From Bacteroidia bacterium (GTDB lineage: Bacteria > Bacteroidota > Bacteroidia > UBA4408): DNA of 64,000 bases. Shown here one piece after another: positions 190 to 53,979 of the stretch (position 1 is the first letter of the stretch; each line of letters starts with the position of its first letter). The stretch lies in NCBI GenBank assembly GCA_043778625.1, contig JAYWFU010000104.1, positions 3,216 to 67,215 of the forward strand, in the 5' to 3' direction. Below the pieces are notes generated by a model that worked only from the letters and a program-made list of their open reading frames with translations, did not search any database and was not told where the DNA came from. A program made the translations under genes and the position numbers.

Positions 190-756
190 TTAATTGAATG
201 GTAGTTTACCAATAATTGAATAGTTGCTTCCTGTAACAAATGAATATCCTCTTGCGTCACAAATAGTAGCATAATACACTCCATTTAATTTTGTTATGTA
301 TAATTTCCCTTTTGTTTGCAAGTCCATATTACCCAATGATGCATCTTTTAACATTATCGTAGTTTGCTCTTCCGTTAGCGAAAAAGTTGGAGCAACTATC
401 GACAGTTCTGTGTATAAACTAGGCGTTTTTCCACTTACTGTTATCGTGTATGAACCTCCTTCATAATTACCATCTATTGTGTACAAATTATTATTGCTAT
501 CGTAACGCCCTATCCCGTTTATTGTAGTAGTGTAGTTAATTGCACCAATACTTAGTTTGTTACCGGTTACGGTACATGTTGGATTTATTAGTTTGCAGGG
601 TTTACATACTCCACCACAATCCATGGCATCTTCGGTGCTATCTCTAAAACTATTGTGGCAATGGGTAATGTATAATGTTTCTTCGGTTTTGGTGCAGCCC
701 ACCATTACAATTATGGAGAGTAATGCAAATATGTTTTTTTTCATTAGGGTTCTCAA
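190..756 (-). CDS. Cys-motif lipoprotein (HCHN..D.TED..DCGG.CKPC), paralog 1 of a tandem pair
   Basis: 188 aa ORF with signal peptide and lipobox (VGC). Conserved 6-Cys/His motif shared with the adjacent ORF 759-1325. Beta-rich Asn/Thr/Tyr body. Confidence 0.6.
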   Translation of the reverse strand: MRTLMKKNIFALLSIIVMVGCTKTEETLYITHCHNSFRDSTEDAMDCGGVCKPCKLINPTCTVTGNKLSIGAINYTTTINGIGRYDSNNNLYTIDGNYEGGSYTITVSGKTPSLYTELSIVAPTFSLTEEQTTIMLKDASLGNMDLQTKGKLYITKLNGVYYATICDARGYSFVTGSNYSIIGKLPFN

Positions 757-758
757 TT

Positions 759-1325
759 TTATTTAGAAGCAAATTTTCCACTAATGTCATAGTTATAAGT
801 TGATTCGATTTTACCATTACAAATAATAGCGTAATAGGTATCGCCAGTTTTTACCATATATAATTGACCTGAGTTTAAATTCGGCGAAGTACTAGTATAA
901 CTACCATTAATGGATACACGAGCAAAATAAGGATAGCTATTATTTAACGCACCTTGCACAATTGAGTACGCACCATACAAATTAGGTACAGCGTCAGATA
1001 ATGTAATGGTATAATTACCCACTTCGGTAGTACCCGACATTACATATTCGTTATTATTATTTAACTTCCCAGTTCTGTTTGTATGATTAGTCCCTACATA
1101 GGTCTGTTGTGGGCTTACACGTGTAATATTAACTACAACATTACTAAAATTGCAAGTGGGTGTTACAGGAACACAAGGTTTGCAGGCTCCGCCGCAATCG
1201 GTACCATCTTCAGTATCGTCCTTAGTTTTGTTGTGGCAATGTTCAATATCAAGCGGCTTTTCGGTTGTTTTGTTACAACTTAAAACACCTACACAAAATA
1301 TAACTAAAAGTAGTTTCGTTCTCAT
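759..1325 (-). CDS. Cys-motif lipoprotein, paralog 2 of tandem pair
   Basis: 188 aa, signal peptide plus lipobox (LSC). Same HCHNKTKDDTEDGTDCGGACKPC motif and identical length to its neighbour. 2 nt spacing between the two genes. Confidence 0.6.
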   Translation of the reverse strand: MRTKLLLVIFCVGVLSCNKTTEKPLDIEHCHNKTKDDTEDGTDCGGACKPCVPVTPTCNFSNVVVNITRVSPQQTYVGTNHTNRTGKLNNNNEYVMSGTTEVGNYTITLSDAVPNLYGAYSIVQGALNNSYPYFARVSINGSYTSTSPNLNSGQLYMVKTGDTYYAIICNGKIESTYNYDISGKFASK

Positions 1326-48120: not shown

Positions 48121-48300
48121 AATAGGTGTCTTTTAACAATTATTTTTTTTTCTAACACTTCAATACGTTTAAGTAATTGTTCAATTAGCAATTGTTGTTG
48201 TTCGTTTTTTAATTTTTCGGTTTAATGTTGTGCATTAAGTTCTTTTATTGCTTCAATTAATATGGGAGTAAATTTGCTATCATCTACGTTTTGTAGTATT
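48121..48300 (-). pseudogene. decayed 3' remnant of a second tail-fiber/peptidase-S74 gene
   Basis: 48215-48300 is ~80 percent identical to 49745-49830, the 3' end of the 1430 aa gene. It encodes VDDSKFTPILIEAIKEL, then frameshifts into a coiled-coil LKNEQQQLLIEQLLKRIEVLEKK. Confidence 0.55.
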
Positions 48301-48304
48301 GGTA

Positions 48305-48826
48305 TTAATACGCACGAATGGTACTTGCGTTTACTTCCATTAAGTCGCCTTTTTGCTTGAGCACAGCTATACCTAGGTCTAGGGCTTCTTGCTCCAATTC
48401 GGCATAAAAACTAAAACTAGCTAAGCCACAGTATATGGTATAGTCAGCATAATCAGGATTAAGTGCTCTAAAATTTGGTACTTTACTTTCCACCAGCTTT
48501 ATAAGGTCGTTTTTGTGCGCTTTGTATTTACATTCGATAAGTGCTATGCTATTACCGTTGTACATTACCACATCAAATTCGTCCTGTAGGCGTTTGGTAC
48601 GTTGTTTTACGTTACGGTCCACATAATCGTAACTAATGCCCGCAAACAATTTAGACGTTTCAAGAGCGTTATAAAAATAATATTCGGCAAAGTCACCGTT
48701 GTTATGCCCTACATTTGATAATTCCCTGCTTGTGCGCTCTACTTGTGCTTCAGTTTGGGCAAAACGCAAAGCGTTTTGGGCTATAAGTTCTGCTAATGAT
48801 TGCTCTATTCTATCTATACGTTCCAT
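48305..48826 (-). CDS. PD-(D/E)XK-like nuclease-fold protein with N-terminal coiled coil (paralog 2)
   Basis: 173 aa; motif DEFDVVMYNGNSIALIECKYK (D..E.K). C-terminal ~60 aa nearly identical to 48959-49528. Confidence 0.5.
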   Translation of the reverse strand: MERIDRIEQSLAELIAQNALRFAQTEAQVERTSRELSNVGHNNGDFAEYYFYNALETSKLFAGISYDYVDRNVKQRTKRLQDEFDVVMYNGNSIALIECKYKAHKNDLIKLVESKVPNFRALNPDYADYTIYCGLASFSFYAELEQEALDLGIAVLKQKGDLMEVNASTIRAY

Positions 48827-48871
48827 GTGTAGTATATTTTTAATTTTAACACAAATATAATTATATTTTAT

Positions 48872-48907
48872 ACAACAAAGGCTACCTATCAGGTAGCCTT
48901 TGTTTGT
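48872..48907 (-). terminator. long conserved hairpin (ACAACAAAGGCTACCT-ATC-AGGTAGCCTTTGTTTGT) between the paralogs: terminator/attenuator-like
   Basis: 16 bp stem. A near-identical element at 49626-49661 precedes paralog 1. No strong U-run. Confidence 0.45.
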
Positions 48908-48958
48908 TATGTTTTAGCACAATGCACTAAGAAATTTATTCATTAAGATGGAGCTTAA

Positions 48959-49528
48959 CTAATACGCACGTATTGTACTTGCGTTTACTTCCATTAGGTC
49001 GCCTTTTTGCTTAAGTACTGCTACACCTAGGTCTAATGCTTGCTGTTCTAATTCAGAGTAAAAACTAAAGCTCGCTAAGCCACAGTATATAGTGTAGTTA
49101 GCGTAGTCGGTGTTGAGCTCTCTAAAATTACTTACCTTTTTTTCTACTAATTTCTTCAAGTCCTTTTCATGCGCTTTGTACTTGCATTCTATTAAGGCTA
49201 TGCTGTTGCCGTTGTACATTACTAAGTCAAATTCGTCTTCTAATCGGTGGCGTTTAATGTGTATGTTTTTGCTAATTGTGTCGTACTTAATTCCTGCAAA
49301 TACCATAGTTTCGCTAAGCGAATTATAAAAATAATCCTCCGCATAATCGCCATTATTGTGCCCTATGTTAGATAGTAAAGCTTCCGTTTTAGCAAAACGC
49401 TCGTCGCCTTTGGCAAACAATGCTTTGGTTTCGGCAAAGCCTCTTTGTGTTTGGGCTTGGGCTTTTTGATTTTCGGCTTGCATTAGGAGTATGCTTGCCA
49501 CTAGGTCTTTAAGTTCTTGGTCGGTCAT
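48959..49528 (-). CDS. PD-(D/E)XK-like nuclease-fold protein with N-terminal coiled coil (paralog 1)
   Basis: 189 aa; DEFDLVMYNGNSIALIECKYK; same C-terminus as paralog 2. Confidence 0.5.
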   Translation of the reverse strand: MTDQELKDLVASILLMQAENQKAQAQTQRGFAETKALFAKGDERFAKTEALLSNIGHNNGDYAEDYFYNSLSETMVFAGIKYDTISKNIHIKRHRLEDEFDLVMYNGNSIALIECKYKAHEKDLKKLVEKKVSNFRELNTDYANYTIYCGLASFSFYSELEQQALDLGVAVLKQKGDLMEVNASTIRAY

Positions 49529-49625
49529 GGGGATAGATTGGGTTTTAGATATTAGACACTAAATTTTAGACGTTAGATATATAGATGGTAGGTTTTTGTA
49601 AGTACAACAAATGTAGTTATTTTAT

Positions 49626-49661
49626 ACAACAAAGGCTACCTGTCAGGTAGCCTTTGTTTGT
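49626..49661 (-). terminator. long conserved hairpin downstream of the tail-fiber-like gene
   Basis: ACAACAAAGGCTACC-TGTC-AGGTAGCCTTTGTTTG; duplicated at 48872-48907. Confidence 0.45.
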
Positions 49662-49686
49662 TATGTTTTAGCACAAGTCGTTATTT

Positions 49687-52600
49687 TTACTTACGTTTTA
49701 AGGCTTCTATTTCTTTGCGTAGTTCTTCAATAGCTTTTTTATCAGTATCGCGCTCAGCTTTTAGCTCTTTTATTGCTTCAATAAGTATTGGAGTAAATTT
49801 GCTATAATCTACACCTTTGTAGCCATCGGCACTAGTGTTAATTAGTTGTGGGTACACTGCCTCTACCTCTTGGGCTATTACGCCTACTTGTGTGCCTTGG
49901 CCAAAGCCTTTGTCTTTGTACTCGGCTTTCATATCGTAGGTTACGCCACGTAGCTTTAGCACATTGGTTAGTGCACCTTGCAAGGTAGTAACGTTTTGCT
50001 TATAACGAGCATCACTTGGGGTAATAGTACCACTGGCTAGTATGTTGCCTATTACGTGGAGTTTTTGGGTAGGAGCATTAGTACCCATACCTATGTTACC
50101 ATTATCATAGCGAATAGCCAAACTATTAAGTGCAAGAGTTGATTCCATAACTAATACTTGATTTACTACATTACCTAGCGGGTTGTATTGAGATATTCTA
50201 AAATCTAAATCATCAGCTGCATTATCTTTAAAATCAATATAAGCTTTAGTAAAAGGTGTAGATAACTGATTACGGAATATCTCCAATTGTCCATCAGTAG
50301 ATATAATGGCTGAGCTTAGCCCATTACTATTTTCTGTAAGTACAGAACCATCTACCAAGTGGAGCTTTTGTGTGGGTGAAGCTGTACCAATACCTACGTT
50401 GCCAGTAGGTTGTATTACTATTGCGTGCGATGAGTTAGTTCTATTACCAATAGCGAAACTACCGTTAGCACTAAATCCTCCATAGGTACCTACAGATTCC
50501 AATACCCACTGTTGTCCACCTCCCCCTGTATTTTCTAATACAAAATCAACACTACCTGCTGGTGCCGCATCCTTAATATATAACTTAGCGCTTGGCGCAG
50601 TAGTACCAATACCTATGTTACCCGATGGGGCTTGCAATGTCAAAGCTACATTTGGAAACGGTAAGGTAGAGTTCCAAAAATGTAAATCTTTAGTGCCAGC
50701 GTTACTGTACATTTGCCAAGTATTGTTGTTTAAGCCTGCTGTTACGTTTTTAGCTAATGTTAAGCCAAAGTTATTTTCGGCAGTTTGTGTTATGTTTATT
50801 CGGTCGTCGGAGTTTACTAGCACGCTTAGTTTATTAGGGGGGGTTAATGTACCTATACCTACCGTGTGAGCAGCTGTTAGCACCATGGTTGTATTGTTAA
50901 TTAAGTCGTTAGTATTATTTTGTTGGCTTACTGCTCCACCTGTTATGGGGAAATTAGCTATGCCCAACGACCCACTCGAATGCTGATATATGGCACTACC
51001 TGCGTTAGATGACCCACCATCATGATCGCTTACAAACTTATTTAAAGTGGAGTTGTAATAGGTATTAAACCCTAAAAAGCCTCTGTAATTATAAAGGGCA
51101 TAAGCCCCTGTGCCTGCCGCTAAATCTCCTAACGAGTGTAAAAATATCTTGCTAGGCTCAAACGTTCCGCCCACCATAAGGGTAGCATCATTTGTAGCGT
51201 CGGTAGATACGTGTAGTTTAGCACTAGGCGCAGTTGTACCAATACCTACATTAACTTTATTAGCGGCAGTACCGCCTAATATTAAGCTATTACTTGCACC
51301 TACTTTGGCATTGTAGCCTATGGCGGTAGCGTTGGTAAATATGCTATCAGTGGCATCGGCAAGCGCACCCAAAAAGGTGTTGTTGCCCGTAGTGCTTACA
51401 AAAGCACCTGAGTTGTAACCTATGCTTGTATTGTAGTTACCAGTGGTATTGTTATACAAGGCTGATAAACCCAATGCAGTGTTGTAGCTGCCTACAGTAT
51501 TACGGCGTAGGTTAGTGTGGCCTAGCCCCACGTTTTCGTTACCTGTAGTGTTGTTAGCTAAGGCTTGGTCGCCCAATGCTACGTTTAGCGTGCCTGTAGT
51601 GTTTTGCTTTAATGCAGCTGCCCCTACAGCAGTGTTTGCGCTGGCTAAGCTATTAGTTAATGCTAAAGCTCCGATGGCTACGTTGCCTGCACCAGTGGTA
51701 TTAAGCTGCAAAGTACCCGTACCCACTGCTGTGTTAGTAGTGCCTGTGGTATTTTGTGCAAGCGAAGCGTAACCGTAAGCGGTGTTTTGTGTACCTGTGG
51801 TGGCTGGGTTTAATGCACTTACGCCAAAAGCAGTGTTTTGTAATGCGTTGTTAATTAATCCGCTCTGTAAGCCATTACGCTTAAACACTACATCTTGGTT
51901 GTCAGTTGTGCCCATAAAGTTGATAGCCGAGTTAGTACCACTATTGCCTGTAAGCCCCCAAAACAAACCGTTAGTTGGGGTGCTGGCGGTAGAAGCTGGT
52001 ATTACATCGCCATTGGCATCGGTACTTAGTACGCTTGCATTAGGTAAGTTGGTTAGGCGCAAACCACTGTTGCCTGTTGTGCCGTGGGTAATTTCTAACT
52101 TATTGTTGGGAGCATTTTGCCCAATGCCTACATTACCATTATTTAATATTGTTAGGCGAGATAAGTTGGGTGTAATATCATATATTGCTAAACCATTTAC
52201 ATCAGTTTGTATTCTAAATAAATCGCCAGCGGTAACACTCATATCAATAACTGTGTTTGTTGTATTGAATAGGTTTATACCATCGCCATTTATATCTAAT
52301 TTCCGTATAGGGGTAGTTGTACCTATACCTACGTTGCCATTGCTTTCAATGCGCATTTTTTCAGTAGCCAAAATAACTCCATTGTTGGTAGTTAAAAATT
52401 TTAAATTAGAACCTGCCTGTGTTGCGCTATGGTTTTCGGAAGTTTCACTTGTGATACCTGTTAACGAATTAGAAGTATTAAACGCTGTACCCAAATAACT
52501 TGCAAATGAAAGATAGCCCAAGCCGTCGCCTAACTGAAGAGGCGTTGGTGTGCTTAATGTGCCTCGTGCACCTTGCATGCCAAGCACACCGCCATAGGCA

Positions 52601-53979
52601 GGGGTTGTACTCATGTAATTAGTGTGGTATATACCTCTGTTATAGCCTTGGTCAACTACTTCTAATGTACCTGTTGGTGTAAACGGAGTACCTATGGCAA
52701 CAGCACCAGTAGTAAAAATACGCATGTTTTCAACTCCGTTGGTTTTAAGTACAAAATCTTGCGCATCGGTTGTACCAATAAAATTAGTGCCTGCTACTGT
52801 GCCTGCATTGCCCTTGAGTAGCCATGCTTGGGCTTTAATACTATCAGTTATGGTAGTGTTGGTTACGTTGGGTGGTGTTGTCCAAGTTGGGGCTACACCT
52901 GCGCCTGCGCTAGTAAGCACTTGCCCAGTAGTGCCAGCAAGGGTGTTAGGCATTAGTGCACCTGTAAAGCGTAGGTTACCCGTTACATCCAACGGTTGGC
53001 TGGGCAATGCTTGGTTAATACCTACGTAACCAGTACCACTTAGTATGGTTATTTTTTCGGCACTGTTGGCCACTATGTGCAAGTCGCGCGCATTAAGTGT
53101 ACCTAGTTTGTTAGTGGCACTGGCATTATTACCCTTGAGCAACCACGCTTGTGCGGCTATACTATCGGTAATAGTTTGTAGTATGTTTTGCCCGCCAATG
53201 TACAGGCTATCCATGTTGCTAACTCCTCCGTTAAATGTATTAGCAGTAATGCTATTGGTGGTTATTGTGTTGCTTTTTAGGGTATCAATTTGCCCGTTTT
53301 TAATGTAGGCATAGTTGGTGGTGCTACTATCTACTTTTAATATATTAATGTTAGCGTTGTTAATTATTGCTATATTGGTTATGCTGGTGTCTACGGTTAA
53401 TATATTAATTACGGCGTTATTAATGTTGGTATAATTAAATAGGGCAGTATCACCCTTGAGTATATTAATTATGGTGGTGCTGTTGCTATTCAAATATTTT
53501 TTAATGGCTTTGTTAAGCAAGGCGGTATCAATACTCTTGTCGCATAGATTTTTCCACGCCGTGCCGTTATAAAAATGGTAGCACGCGCTGTCGGTGTTAT
53601 ATATTAATAAGGCAGCTTCGGTGGTAGTGGTGGCTATGGCTAACATTGCGGGGGTGTTCATGCGTGGTGCCATAAAACCTTTGTCAGTTGCTTTTAGTTC
53701 CAATATAGCTTTGCTATTGGGGGTGGTGGTACCTATGCCTACGTTGTTTTGGGCTTGGGTGGTTACAAATGAACACGCAACAATTAGTAGGGTTAGATAA
53801 TAGTATTTAGATGTTAGACAGTACAGGCTAGATTTTATGCTGTTAGCTACTAGGCTTATGTGGCGGGTGATACCACCCCGCCCTGCGGGCACCCCTCCTA
53901 AAAAAGGAGGGGAACAGCATGGTGTGAGTGTGTTAGTTTGAGTGACTTGATTTGCGATGGTGAGTAATAGTGTTTTCAT
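49687..53979 (-). CDS. giant tail-fiber-like surface protein with VGIGTT..P..KL repeats, Hep_Hag/YadA-head-like NTA.G..AL..NTTG repeats and C-terminal peptidase S74 (endosialidase intramolecular chaperone) domain
   Basis: 1430 aa. Repeats such as NVGIGTTTPNSKAILEL, NIGIGTTAPSAKLYI. C-terminus SDARYKQNVTTLQGALTNVLKLRGVTYDM...GVIAQEVEAVYPQLI...ILIEAIKELKAE is a typical S74 chaperone domain. The annotated N-terminal 60 aa translate a GC-rich hairpin element, so the true start is uncertain. Confidence 0.7.
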   Translation of the reverse strand: MKTLLLTIANQVTQTNTLTPCCSPPFLGGVPAGRGGITRHISLVANSIKSSLYCLTSKYYYLTLLIVACSFVTTQAQNNVGIGTTTPNSKAILELKATDKGFMAPRMNTPAMLAIATTTTEAALLIYNTDSACYHFYNGTAWKNLCDKSIDTALLNKAIKKYLNSNSTTIINILKGDTALFNYTNINNAVINILTVDTSITNIAIINNANINILKVDSSTTNYAYIKNGQIDTLKSNTITTNSITANTFNGGVSNMDSLYIGGQNILQTITDSIAAQAWLLKGNNASATNKLGTLNARDLHIVANSAEKITILSGTGYVGINQALPSQPLDVTGNLRFTGALMPNTLAGTTGQVLTSAGAGVAPTWTTPPNVTNTTITDSIKAQAWLLKGNAGTVAGTNFIGTTDAQDFVLKTNGVENMRIFTTGAVAIGTPFTPTGTLEVVDQGYNRGIYHTNYMSTTPAYGGVLGMQGARGTLSTPTPLQLGDGLGYLSFASYLGTAFNTSNSLTGITSETSENHSATQAGSNLKFLTTNNGVILATEKMRIESNGNVGIGTTTPIRKLDINGDGINLFNTTNTVIDMSVTAGDLFRIQTDVNGLAIYDITPNLSRLTILNNGNVGIGQNAPNNKLEITHGTTGNSGLRLTNLPNASVLSTDANGDVIPASTASTPTNGLFWGLTGNSGTNSAINFMGTTDNQDVVFKRNGLQSGLINNALQNTAFGVSALNPATTGTQNTAYGYASLAQNTTGTTNTAVGTGTLQLNTTGAGNVAIGALALTNSLASANTAVGAAALKQNTTGTLNVALGDQALANNTTGNENVGLGHTNLRRNTVGSYNTALGLSALYNNTTGNYNTSIGYNSGAFVSTTGNNTFLGALADATDSIFTNATAIGYNAKVGASNSLILGGTAANKVNVGIGTTAPSAKLHVSTDATNDATLMVGGTFEPSKIFLHSLGDLAAGTGAYALYNYRGFLGFNTYYNSTLNKFVSDHDGGSSNAGSAIYQHSSGSLGIANFPITGGAVSQQNNTNDLINNTTMVLTAAHTVGIGTLTPPNKLSVLVNSDDRINITQTAENNFGLTLAKNVTAGLNNNTWQMYSNAGTKDLHFWNSTLPFPNVALTLQAPSGNIGIGTTAPSAKLYIKDAAPAGSVDFVLENTGGGGQQWVLESVGTYGGFSANGSFAIGNRTNSSHAIVIQPTGNVGIGTASPTQKLHLVDGSVLTENSNGLSSAIISTDGQLEIFRNQLSTPFTKAYIDFKDNAADDLDFRISQYNPLGNVVNQVLVMESTLALNSLAIRYDNGNIGMGTNAPTQKLHVIGNILASGTITPSDARYKQNVTTLQGALTNVLKLRGVTYDMKAEYKDKGFGQGTQVGVIAQEVEAVYPQLINTSADGYKGVDYSKFTPILIEAIKELKAERDTDKKAIEELRKEIEALKRK
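53861..53915. repeat. GC-rich hairpin element (GGCGGGTG-ATAC-CACCCCGCC; GCACCCCTCC-TAAAAA-AGGAGGGGAA) inside the annotated 5' end of the tail-fiber-like gene
   Basis: Shares the GCACCCCTCC and AAAGGAGGGGAA arms with the element at 5476-5560. GC content sharply above local background. Confidence 0.55.

What the first reader, a model, noticed from the sequence alone, without database searches (positions are those of the whole stretch)
48121..49680. Tandem, partially homogenised PD-(D/E)XK-like paralogs, each with a conserved 36 nt hairpin leader, plus a decayed second fiber-gene 3' end: a local recombination hotspot
Genes 48959-49528 and 48305-48826 share a nearly identical C-terminal third and the motif DEFD(L/V)VMYNGNSIALIECKYK (a D...E.K nuclease-fold signature), but have diverged coiled-coil N-termini. 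Each is preceded by the same long hairpin (ACAACAAAGGCTACC..GGTAGCCTTTGTTTG). Downstream of the second paralog lies an ~85 bp remnant ~80 percent identical to the last codons of the tail-fiber gene's S74 domain, followed by a frameshifted coiled-coil tail. This implies repeated duplication and deletion of a unit comprising fiber 3' end, hairpin and small nuclease-like gene. The unit could be a small addiction, defence or specificity-swapping cassette coupled to the fiber gene.
Basis: seen in the sequence. Interest (0 to 1): 0.6.

Follow-up and report, generated by a model that had tools for sequence, protein, structure and literature searches.

The report
Tandem mobile nuclease-gene cassettes behind fibre gene
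Two copies of a small, self-contained gene for a coiled-coil nuclease-like protein sit behind a surface-fibre gene, and comparison with other genomes suggests they belong to a widespread, multi-copy, apparently mobile cassette that lodges at the conserved ends of surface-protein genes.

Summary
Two minus-strand genes, A (48959-49528) and B (48305-48826), encode coiled-coil plus PD-(D/E)XK-fold proteins. Each follows a 59-nt block that is 98% identical between copies and holds a 31-nt perfect palindrome. A decayed relic of the fibre gene's S74 3' end follows B.

Some details need correcting:
- The hairpin lies upstream of a Bacteroidota-type -7 box and just after the preceding stop codon. It is a terminator-type hairpin, not a leader.
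- C-terminal protein identity reflects purifying selection (dS about 3, dN/dS 0.06), not homogenisation.
- The relic carries an in-frame stop, not a frameshift.

Sister loci from the same metagenomes repeat the unit [S74 3' fragment + hairpin/promoter block + gene] behind four other fibre genes. They share junctions, and N-terminal and core modules are shuffled.

The protein family is large (about 2,700 clusters at 50% identity), multi-copy per genome and patchy across phyla. Elsewhere it sits behind T9SS sorting-domain genes. It is flanked by direct repeats in 22 of 75 loci, against 10 of 210 control positions.

Best reading: an autonomous, recombination-spread selfish nuclease cassette. A nuclease-driven, homing-like mechanism is inferred and untested.

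The parts
49687..53979 (-). Fibre-like chromosomal protein (1430 aa as the longest ORF). Its Peptidase_S74 intramolecular-chaperone domain spans aa 1322-1379 (nt 49843-50016), followed by a coiled-coil tail.
   Evidence: Pfam PF13884, E 2.3e-15. PHROG tail fibre/spike families match. Neighbouring genes are ordinary chromosomal genes, not a prophage.
49687..49812 (-). 3' end of the fibre gene (..VDYSKFTPILIEAIKEL..LRKEIEALKRK*). This is the segment that recurs as relics inside the cassette arrays.
   Evidence: Repeat D2. Alignments. Identity to the L091 fibre rises from ~40-50% to 76-86% toward the stop codon.
49618..49676 (-). Conserved non-coding block, copy 1. It contains the 31-nt perfect palindrome 49628-49658, a terminator-type hairpin.
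   Evidence: 98% identical to copy 2. dG -27.7, z -5.4. Flagged as terminator-like. Nine copies across the window, L088 and L091.
49608..49615 (-). TACATTTG, a putative Bacteroidota -7 promoter box (TAnnTTTG) for paralog A. It is followed by a ~75-nt unstructured leader.
   Evidence: Read directly from the sequence. Conserved in all block copies. The promoter consensus is from my own knowledge of Bacteroidetes promoters. The TSS has not been mapped.
48959..49528 (-). Paralog A, 189 aa: MTDQELKDLVA-type coiled-coil N-terminus joined to a PD-(D/E)XK core of clade I.
   Evidence: Catalytic E64, D101, E114 and K116 are conserved.
48923..48958 (-). 36-nt spacer between the A stop codon and block 2. 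Probably a strongly decayed piece of the S74 fragment (..TPILIEAIKELNA..).
   Evidence: The same spacer occurs in L088. Its resemblance to the relic sequence is by eye, so this is an inference.
48864..48922 (-). Conserved non-coding block, copy 2. It contains the palindrome 48874-48904.
48852..48859 (-). TATATTTG, a putative -7 promoter box for paralog B, with a ~20-nt leader.
   Evidence: Analogous GGTATATTTGTAGAAA boxes lie just upstream of homologues in other MAGs.
48305..48826 (-). Paralog B, 173 aa: MERIDRIEQ-type N-terminus joined to a PD-(D/E)XK core of clade II.
   Evidence: (PF09002, 26.5 bits against a cutoff of 26.4).
48121..48304 (-). Orphan relic of an S74 gene 3' end. It starts directly after B's stop codon and has an in-frame stop at 48222-48224.
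   Evidence: The same junction is found in L091, and a related one in L088.

Best explanation
The region is a two-copy tandem array of an autonomous, moron-like gene cassette.

Each cassette has three parts:
1. A relic of the 3' end of an S74-domain fibre gene.
2. A ~60-80-nt conserved block. It combines a bidirectional terminator-type hairpin with a Bacteroidota promoter box.
3. An ORF for a protein with a variable heptad coiled-coil stalk and a 126-aa PD-(D/E)XK nuclease core with intact catalytic residues.

The gene family is multi-copy within genomes and patchy between phyla. It behaves as a selfish or mobile unit. It lodges immediately downstream of genes that end in a conserved C-terminal domain repeated across the genome: S74 in this lineage, and the T9SS sorting domain in Chitinophagaceae.

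Spread and rearrangement go through homologous recombination in these shared 3' ends and hairpin blocks (Campbell-type insertion, unequal crossing-over, gene conversion). This leaves flanking direct repeats, displaced orphan 3' ends, tandem arrays and chimeric genes.

Shown: the anatomy, the fold and catalytic motif, purifying selection, multi-copy dispersal, shared junctions, mosaicism and enrichment of flanking repeats.

Inferred: that the encoded nuclease itself promotes the recombination by making homing-like breaks in the conserved 3' end or at the palindrome. Also inferred: that the hairpin terminates the upstream gene.
For: Fold and motif:
- The AF2 model has pLDDT 87.
- Foldseek top hits are VC1899, AF1548, Card1, Can2, the R2 endonuclease domain, BspD6I and NucS.
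- E64, E114 and K116 are invariant and D101 nearly invariant in 34 homologues.
- PADLOC and Pfam match only the nuclease part of CARF nucleases.

Selection: dN/dS is 0.01-0.20 in all 36 pairwise comparisons of 9 copies.

Unit and junctions:
- In the same metagenomes the cassette follows five different fibre genes: the window, L088 (x3), L091 (x2), L094 and L006.
- S74 relics and hairpin blocks repeat between copies, and the stop/relic junction is shared.
- Identity between fibre genes rises toward the cassette.

Recombination: two N-terminal types and two core clades occur in all four combinations, with clear breakpoints.

Dispersal:
- 158 relatives in GTDB genomes are concentrated in roughly 30 MAGs, with up to 9 loci each.
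- Three copies that are 94-98% identical lie at dispersed sites of one Spirochaetia chromosome. Homology is limited to ~0.9 kb and bounded by a repeated block.
- Flanking direct repeats occur in 22 of 75 loci against 10 of 210 control positions (p 1e-7).
- Strong hairpins lie within 160 nt in 35-39% of loci against 7% of random windows.

Conserved 3' ends: a T9SS sorting domain ends 73-520 nt upstream on the same strand in 12 loci, and an orphan sorting-domain tail lies 57 nt downstream in L037.

Presence/absence: the nearest relative, L097, has a fibre-like gene with a different (Collar-type) C-terminus and no cassette at the same position.
Against: - No cleavage or mobility has been observed.
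- Most intragenomic copies in Chitinophagaceae and in this lineage are old (dS 0.35 to over 3; 65-72% nt identity), so there is no sign of recent movement here.
- About 70% of GTDB loci show neither flanking repeats nor a sorting-domain gene upstream.
- The sorting-domain HMM was built from cassette-adjacent examples. This inflates the apparent enrichment.
- Strong purifying selection on many old paralogues fits a host-beneficial function as well as a selfish one.
- No empty and occupied alleles were found within one species.
- The high conservation of the hairpin block could simply reflect gene conversion between nearby repeats.
Confidence: 0.55

Rival explanations
1. This is an ordinary cellular or defence gene family that has merely been duplicated locally. 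The proteins would be stand-alone effector nucleases, for example an abortive-infection or DNA-repair function related to the Card1/Can2 nuclease domain. Their position behind fibre genes would reflect segmental duplication of fibre loci, and the hairpins would simply be terminators.
For: - The nuclease core matches Card1/Can2/Csx1-type models.
- Strong purifying selection acts on old paralogues.
- Each gene has its own promoter.
- The hairpin core is a generic terminator.
Against: - There is no CARF or other sensor domain and no partner gene.
- There is no match to a complete defence-system model. PADLOC hits cover only the nuclease part.
- Up to 9 dispersed copies per genome, a patchy phyletic spread, flanking direct repeats, truncated copies and orphan 3' ends are atypical for a housekeeping or single defence gene.
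- Fibre genes next to cassettes are unrelated upstream of the last ~300 nt, which argues against simple segmental duplication.
Confidence: 0.25
2. The cassette is a functional partner of the fibre gene. It would be a programmed recombination device that swaps fibre C-termini (specificity or antigenic variation), with the relics serving as silent donor cassettes.
For: - In this lineage 5 of 5 loci are next to S74/fibre genes.
- The nearest relative has a different fibre C-terminus and no cassette.
- Relics of S74 ends persist in the arrays.
Against: - The relics encode the conserved chaperone tail that is cleaved off, not a variable receptor-binding part. They are decayed by stops and truncations.
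- Most family members elsewhere are not next to fibre genes.
- No invertase or recombinase is nearby.
Confidence: 0.08
3. The hairpin is a regulatory RNA leader (attenuator, riboswitch or sRNA) controlling the paralogues.
For: The block is highly conserved (88-98% across nine copies) and one copy shows compensatory change (L088, AAAGGGCTACC..GGTAGCCCTTT).
Against: - The hairpin lies upstream of the conserved TAnnTTTG box.
- No Rfam family reaches threshold, and the weak hits are terminator-bearing sRNAs.
- In L091 one block has lost the hairpin yet the gene is intact, and L094 has no hairpin at all.
- The same core occurs as a terminator in at least 120 unrelated contexts.
Confidence: 0.04

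Closest known systems
Coiled-coil PD-(D/E)XK endonucleases grouped under Pfam DUF3782 (mentioned by Hartmann et al., eLife 2016, PMC4786415)
   Same: The architecture matches: an N-terminal coiled-coil stalk followed by a PD-(D/E)XK endonuclease domain, with bacterial members showing plain heptad periodicity. The family is uncharacterised functionally.
   Different: The PF12644 match is only 12.6 bits against a cutoff of 24.4. That paper deals with coiled-coil structure and says nothing about genomic behaviour, copy number or association with gene 3' ends.
Card1/Can2 (VC1899-like) CRISPR ancillary nucleases, Pfam PF09002
   Same: This is the best sequence and structure match for the nuclease core.
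   Different: There is no CARF domain and no type III CRISPR context. The proteins here are 170-240 aa with a coiled coil instead of a sensor.
Free-standing homing endonuclease genes and intron-less homing (e.g. phage T4 seg/mob genes; own knowledge)
   Same: A small autonomous nuclease gene sits in an intergenic position next to a conserved coding sequence. Similarity of the flanking gene rises toward the insertion, resembling a co-conversion tract. There is presence/absence between relatives.
   Different: Target cleavage is untested. The family is multi-copy within one genome, whereas classical homing genes occupy one site. The inserted unit carries a replacement 3' end and leaves the old one as a relic.
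Rhs/CDI-type arrays of displaced 'orphan' C-terminal cassettes (polymorphic toxin systems, PMC3482391)
   Same: There is recombination at a conserved region near the 3' end of a large surface or secreted protein gene. Displaced 3' fragments accumulate downstream.
   Different: No toxin/immunity pair is present. The displaced pieces are conserved chaperone or sorting-domain tails, not variable toxin domains. The accompanying gene is a nuclease-fold protein with its own promoter.
Phage 'morons' (promoter-gene-terminator units inserted between genes; own knowledge)
   Same: It is a self-contained transcription unit bracketed by terminator-type hairpins and inserted between unrelated genes.
   Different: It is chromosomal rather than prophage-borne, and one gene family is repeated many times.
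Rpn/YhgA-like PD-(D/E)XK 'recombination-promoting nucleases' (own knowledge)
   Same: These are multi-copy PD-(D/E)XK genes without classical transposon ends, and are suspected to promote recombination.
   Different: No sequence relationship was detected (no Transposase_31 hit). The architecture and size differ.

Membership tests
PD-(D/E)XK nuclease superfamily | Restriction-endonuclease-like alpha-beta-beta-beta-alpha-beta core fold | tested here: met
   The AF2 model (pLDDT 87; core above 90) has the element order H-E-E-E-H-E-H-E-E. All significant Foldseek PDB hits are PD-(D/E)XK nucleases.
PD-(D/E)XK nuclease superfamily | Catalytic signature E ... D ... (D/E)-x-K on helix 1 and strands 2-3 | tested here: met
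   E64, E114 and K116 are invariant and D101 at least 90% conserved in 34 homologues. All are present in both A and B.
PD-(D/E)XK nuclease superfamily | Metal-dependent phosphodiesterase activity | not testable with these tools
   Needs biochemistry.
Card1/Can2 CARF nucleases | N-terminal CARF domain binding cyclic oligoadenylate | tested here: not met
   Residues 3-53 are a single long helix. PADLOC and Pfam alignments cover only the nuclease part of the CARF-nuclease models.
Card1/Can2 CARF nucleases | Card1_endonuc (PF09002) domain above the curated cutoff | tested here: inconclusive
   B scores 26.5 bits against a cutoff of 26.4. A scores 22.1 bits, below the cutoff.
DUF3782 coiled-coil endonucleases | N-terminal coiled-coil stalk fused to a PD-(D/E)XK domain | tested here: met
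   N-terminal length varies from 42 to 116 aa and is 0 mod 7 in 77 of 116 homologues, while the core is fixed at 126 aa.
DUF3782 coiled-coil endonucleases | Match to PF12644 above the cutoff | tested here: not met
   E 0.16, 12.6 bits against a cutoff of 24.4, for A only.
Free-standing homing endonuclease gene | Site-specific cleavage of the cassette-free allele | not testable with these tools
Free-standing homing endonuclease gene | Presence/absence polymorphism at an otherwise conserved site | tested here: inconclusive
   L097 (neighbour gene 88% aa identical) lacks the cassette. Its fibre gene also has a different C-terminus, and orthology of the fibre is unproven.
Integron gene cassette | Promoterless ORF plus attC site, with an IntI integrase and attI nearby | tested here: not met
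   Each unit carries its own promoter box. No recombinase lies among the neighbouring genes. The hairpin is a perfect palindrome of terminator type.
CoCoNuT / McrBC-type coiled-coil nuclease systems (PMC11090510) | Association with an McrB GTPase and McrC, and large multi-domain proteins | tested here: not met
   The proteins are 173-189 aa. The neighbours are a fibre gene and T9SS cargo genes.
Intrinsic (Rho-independent) terminator (the hairpin) | G+C-rich stem-loop followed by a U-run | tested here: met
   The scan flags both hairpins (14-bp stems, 6 GC pairs), with the T-run on the + strand. On the gene strand the core stem GGCUACC/GGUAGCC is followed by UUUGUUGUAU. The same core occurs with A- and T-tracts in at least 120 unrelated contigs. 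Termination itself was not measured.

The most novel reading that the evidence does not exclude
This would be a previously undescribed class of self-propagating gene cassette. A coiled-coil PD-(D/E)XK nuclease would cut at the palindromic blocks, or at the conserved 3' end of genes sharing a common C-terminal domain (the S74 chaperone domain or the T9SS sorting domain). The cassette would then be copied in together with a replacement 3' end. In this way it would home between paralogous surface-protein genes of one genome and drive exchange of their C-terminal modules.
Probability: 0.17. Interest if true: 0.8.

Novelty: new variant of a known kind. Interest (0 to 1): 0.55.

Why it matters
Surface fibres and T9SS cargo proteins are the main interface of Bacteroidota with their environment, and their genes form large paralogous families that share C-terminal domains.

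A selfish nuclease cassette that rides on, and perhaps breaks, those shared 3' ends would be a new driver of recombination and domain exchange in these families. It would also be a new example of intragenomic homing.

It would assign a biological role to a sizeable uncharacterised protein family: about 2,700 clusters at 50% identity, known so far only as a coiled-coil curiosity.

Even if the nuclease proves passive, the locus is a clear, well-resolved case of cassette arrays built by recombination at terminator and 3'-end repeats.

Tried and rejected
- NCBIfam and PHROGs gave no meaningful hit for A or B.
- Rfam with permissive thresholds gave nothing above gathering scores.
- tblastn with the window's S74 tail found no S74 next to family genes in 80 GTDB loci. 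An S74-specific coupling is therefore rejected as a general rule. Pfam on the upstream ORFs then revealed the T9SS sorting domain instead.
- A metagenome scan for the hairpin core returned at least 120 unrelated terminator-like sites. None had the family gene or the extended block. The hairpin core is therefore not a specific mobile repeat.
- Tandem Repeats Finder found no DNA tandem repeats in the window's A or B. A 21-nt x3.6 array occurs in L088 copy 1.
- Integron, CARF-nuclease, CoCoNuT and regulatory-leader readings were considered and rejected (see the membership tests).
- Literature searches for the family, for T9SS C-terminal-domain gene conversion and for PF09002 found no description of this cassette behaviour. 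One search failed on syntax.
- Orthologue loci L098 and L099 were uninformative, as they have no fibre gene at that position.
Full report
**What is in the window**

All relevant genes are on the minus strand. Reading in the gene direction, the order is:
1. A 1430-aa fibre-like protein (53979 to 49687) with a Peptidase_S74 chaperone domain at aa 1322-1379 and a coiled-coil tail.
2. A 59-nt block (49676 to 49618) containing a 31-nt perfect palindrome (49658 to 49628).
3. Paralog A (49528 to 48959, 189 aa).
4. A 36-nt spacer.
5. A second copy of the block (48922 to 48864; palindrome 48904 to 48874).
6. Paralog B (48826 to 48305, 173 aa).
7. Directly after B's stop codon, a relic of an S74 3' end (48304 to about 48121).

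The two blocks are 98% identical. A and B are 71% identical over 160 aa. The relic matches the fibre 3' end at 73% over 94 nt without gaps and is found by tblastn at E 3e-5.

The surrounding genes are ordinary chromosomal genes: T9SS cargo proteins, a cytochrome c assembly protein, an M61 peptidase, an E2 acyltransferase and an aldehyde dehydrogenase. The window has 35.6% G+C. This is a Bacteroidota chromosome, not a prophage.

- *Position of the hairpin.* On the coding strand each palindrome lies 28-54 nt after the preceding stop codon. It is followed by a conserved TAnnTTTG box (TACATTTG at 49615-49608; TATATTTG at 48859-48852). TAnnTTTG is the Bacteroidetes -7 promoter element (my own knowledge). 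The hairpin is therefore upstream of the likely transcription start and is not a leader.
- *Nature of the hairpin.* The hairpin is very stable (dG -27.7, z -5.4), while the true leaders are unstructured. The consensus scan flags both as terminator-like. Rfam gives nothing above threshold. The core AAAGGCTACC-N5-GGTAGCCTTT occurs in at least 120 unrelated metagenome contigs, typically between A- and T-tracts and never with the family gene.
- *The 'nearly identical C-terminal third'.* This is protein conservation. Third-position identity is 0.40-0.55 over most of the gene. Core dS is 3.1 and dN/dS 0.06. Only the last ~40-50 nt are 92-94% identical at the DNA level.
- *The relic.* It is not frameshifted. 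It reads DDSKFTPILIEAIKELNAQH*TEKLKNEQQQLLIEQLLKRIEVLEKK in one frame, with a premature stop.

**The protein**

- Pfam gives a borderline Card1_endonuc match (B 26.5 bits against a cutoff of 26.4) and weak DUF234 and DUF3782 hits.
- PADLOC matches only the nuclease part of CARF-PD-(D/E)XK and Csx1 models.
- An AF2 model (pLDDT 87) shows a 50-residue N-terminal helix and a compact alpha/beta core.
- Foldseek against the PDB returns VC1899, AF1548, Card1, Can2, the R2 endonuclease domain, BspD6I and NucS.
- E64, E114 and K116 are invariant and D101 nearly so across 34 homologues.
- The family is large: more than 500 hits at 90% clustering. Among 50%-identity representatives, 2,701 score E<=1e-3 and 440 score E<=1e-30.
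- In 114 of 116 homologues the catalytic part is exactly 126 aa. The N-terminal stalk varies from 42 to 116 aa and is a multiple of 7 in 77 of 116.
- The closest description in the literature is a remark by Hartmann et al. (PMC4786415). They note a family of prokaryotic PD-(D/E)XK endonucleases with N-terminal coiled-coil stalks grouped under DUF3782. No function is given.

**Sister loci define the repeat unit**

Contigs from the same metagenomes carry relatives of A and B behind four other fibre genes:
- L088: three tandem copies plus a decayed fourth start.
- L091: two copies behind a 1573-aa S74 protein.
- L094: one copy 47 nt after a 935-aa S74 protein, just upstream of murC-ftsQAZ.
- L006: an S74 gene, DUF5618, one copy, then PBP2/RodA.

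Reading the intergenic DNA shows the recurring unit: [S74 3' fragment] + [TTGTGCTAAAAC..hairpin..TTGTAYAAAATAA..TAnnTTTG block] + [gene].

- L091 keeps a mini-relic (LRKEIEALKRK*) between its two copies.
- After its second copy, L091 has the same stop/relic junction as the window (TAA-TACCAATA.CTACAAAAC.GTAGAT).
- L088 has an S74 relic in front of its first copy, behind a fibre ORF that has lost its own S74 domain.
- Nine block copies are 88-98% identical. One shows a compensatory G:C insertion in the stem, and one has a precise collapse of the palindrome.
- The window and L091 fibre genes are essentially unrelated at the DNA level (about 40-50%). Over the last ~300 nt identity climbs to 76-86%, and the final 36 nt plus the block are about 90% identical.

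**Recombination**

The nine cores fall into two clades:
- Clade I: W_A, L088_1, L091_2, L006.
- Clade II: W_B, L088_2, L088_3, L091_1.

The two N-terminal types (MTDQELKDLVA and MERIDRIEQ) combine with both clades. Sliding-window identity shows the switch. W_A has the leader and N-terminus of L091_1 but the core of L091_2 (88-98%). W_B has the N-terminus of L091_2 and L088_1-2 but the core of L091_1 and L088_3 (92-100%).

The locus is therefore a recombination hotspot. The tandem neighbours, however, are ancient and both are maintained by selection (dN/dS 0.01-0.20).

**The wider family**

- A scan of one genome per species found 158 relatives concentrated in about 30 MAGs. These are Chitinophagaceae, Cytophagales, termite-gut Bacteroidia and Spirochaetia, plus single Planctomycetaceae and Comamonadaceae, with up to 9 loci per MAG.
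- S74 is not the general neighbour.
- Of 18 large upstream ORFs tested, 9 end in a T9SS sorting domain and one in a tail Collar domain.
- A profile of that sorting-domain subtype finds it ending 73-520 nt upstream on the same strand in 12 loci. An orphan tail of it lies 57 nt downstream of the gene in L037, the same layout as the S74 relic here. The profile was built from cassette-adjacent examples, so the enrichment is an upper estimate.
- Family genes are flanked by direct repeats in 22 of 75 loci against 10 of 210 control positions (Fisher p 1e-7).
- Strong hairpins (<= -18 kcal/mol) lie within 160 nt on either side in 35-39% of loci against 7% of random windows.
- Promoter boxes such as GGTATATTTGTAGAAA lie just upstream of the ATG.
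- Intragenomic copies are mostly old (median 65-72% nt identity).
- In one complete Spirochaetia chromosome, three copies at 0.13, 0.68 and 1.45 Mb are 94-98% identical. Homology is confined to ~0.9 kb and bounded by a repeated 110-230-nt block. The block is on both sides in two copies and on one side in the third. That is a discrete unit that has recently multiplied.

**Presence and absence**

The closest relative found for the downstream 378-aa gene (88% aa identity, L097) has a fibre-like gene in the same position. It ends in a Collar-type C-terminus (..RPRNVAMMPCIKF*), is followed by a 100-nt gap, and has no cassette. More distant relatives have no fibre gene there.

**Interpretation**

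The best-supported reading (confidence 0.55) is an autonomous, moron-like nuclease cassette. It persists and spreads as a selfish unit and moves or rearranges through recombination. The recombination substrates are sequences repeated around the genome: the conserved 3' ends of S74 or T9SS-sorting-domain genes and its own hairpin and promoter blocks. This accounts for the flanking repeats, orphan 3' ends, arrays, truncated copies and chimeras.

Whether the encoded nuclease triggers these events, in a homing-like way, is inferred from its fold and context only.

Rivals:
- A stand-alone defence or repair nuclease that has merely been duplicated (0.25).
- A device for swapping fibre C-termini (0.08).
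- A regulatory leader role for the hairpin (0.04).

It is not a Card1/Can2 member (no CARF domain), not an integron cassette and not a CoCoNuT system.

**Verdict**

The finding is real and more than a local duplication. The protein family has been mentioned before, but its cassette behaviour and its preference for conserved gene ends do not appear in the searched literature. I rate it a new variant of a known kind (a free-standing selfish nuclease gene, or moron), with interest 0.55.

Noticed in passing
Family-wide (proteins P0001-P0120); window 49370-49528 and 48690-48826: The catalytic part is fixed at 126 aa in 114 of 116 homologues. The N-terminal coiled coil ranges from 42 to 116 aa in steps of 7 (77 of 116 are 0 mod 7; the rest fall in registers +1, +4 or +5). 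L088 copy 1 has a 21-nt x3.6 DNA tandem repeat encoding AQIAKTE heptads.
   Followed up: partly
window 53870-53930 (minus strand): A GC-rich palindromic element, TTCCCCTCCTTTTTTAGGAGGGGTGCCCGCAGGGCGGGGTGG, lies inside the annotated 5' end of the fibre ORF. Similar copies lie in intergenic DNA of L091, L094 and L006. It looks MITE-like, and the true fibre start codon may be further downstream.
   Followed up: partly
L094:3147-8316 and L006:1-4352: In sister loci, fibre gene plus cassette sit next to core cell-wall and division genes: directly upstream of murC-ftsQ-ftsA-ftsZ in L094, and next to PBP2/RodA in L006.
   Followed up: no
L097:3-1041: In the nearest relative, the gene at the fibre position ends in a phage-tail Collar-type C-terminus instead of S74 and has no cassette. 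The same Collar-type ending precedes a family gene in L008.
   Followed up: partly
L071, L073, L078 (Spirochaetia chromosome OZ253665): Three copies are 94-98% identical at dispersed sites. Each ~0.9-kb unit is bounded by a 110-230-nt block rich in ACGAA / TTTCGTG motifs that can pair as a long imperfect palindrome.
   Followed up: partly
L091:5172-5200: One hairpin block has lost exactly the loop and one arm of the palindrome (AAAGGCTA|GCTTTG), while the downstream gene stays intact. A ~170-nt unrelated repeat element is inserted between the two blocks.
   Followed up: no
L088:4200-4260: The 681-aa fibre ORF, which has lost its S74 domain, ends ..IIRAMRRF*. This resembles the paralog C-terminus ..TIRAY*. 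It is followed by the standard TA(C/T)CAATA plus S74-relic junction, which suggests a deletion fusing the fibre gene to a former cassette copy.
   Followed up: partly
L094:6590-6860 and L006:960-1060: A further inverted-repeat element, CCTTGGTTCGTGTCCCCAC(G/A)AAACAA ... TTGTTTCGTGGGGACACGAACCAAGG, flanks cassette regions in two sister loci.
   Followed up: no
window 190-1325 (minus strand): Two adjacent 188-aa lipoprotein-like ORFs are paralogues (33% identity, E 1e-29). Both carry a CHN..TED..DCGG.CKPC motif.
   Followed up: no
P0191 (487 aa): The best-scoring representative in the 50%-cluster library matches the family profile in three stretches. It may be a fused tandem copy.
   Followed up: no
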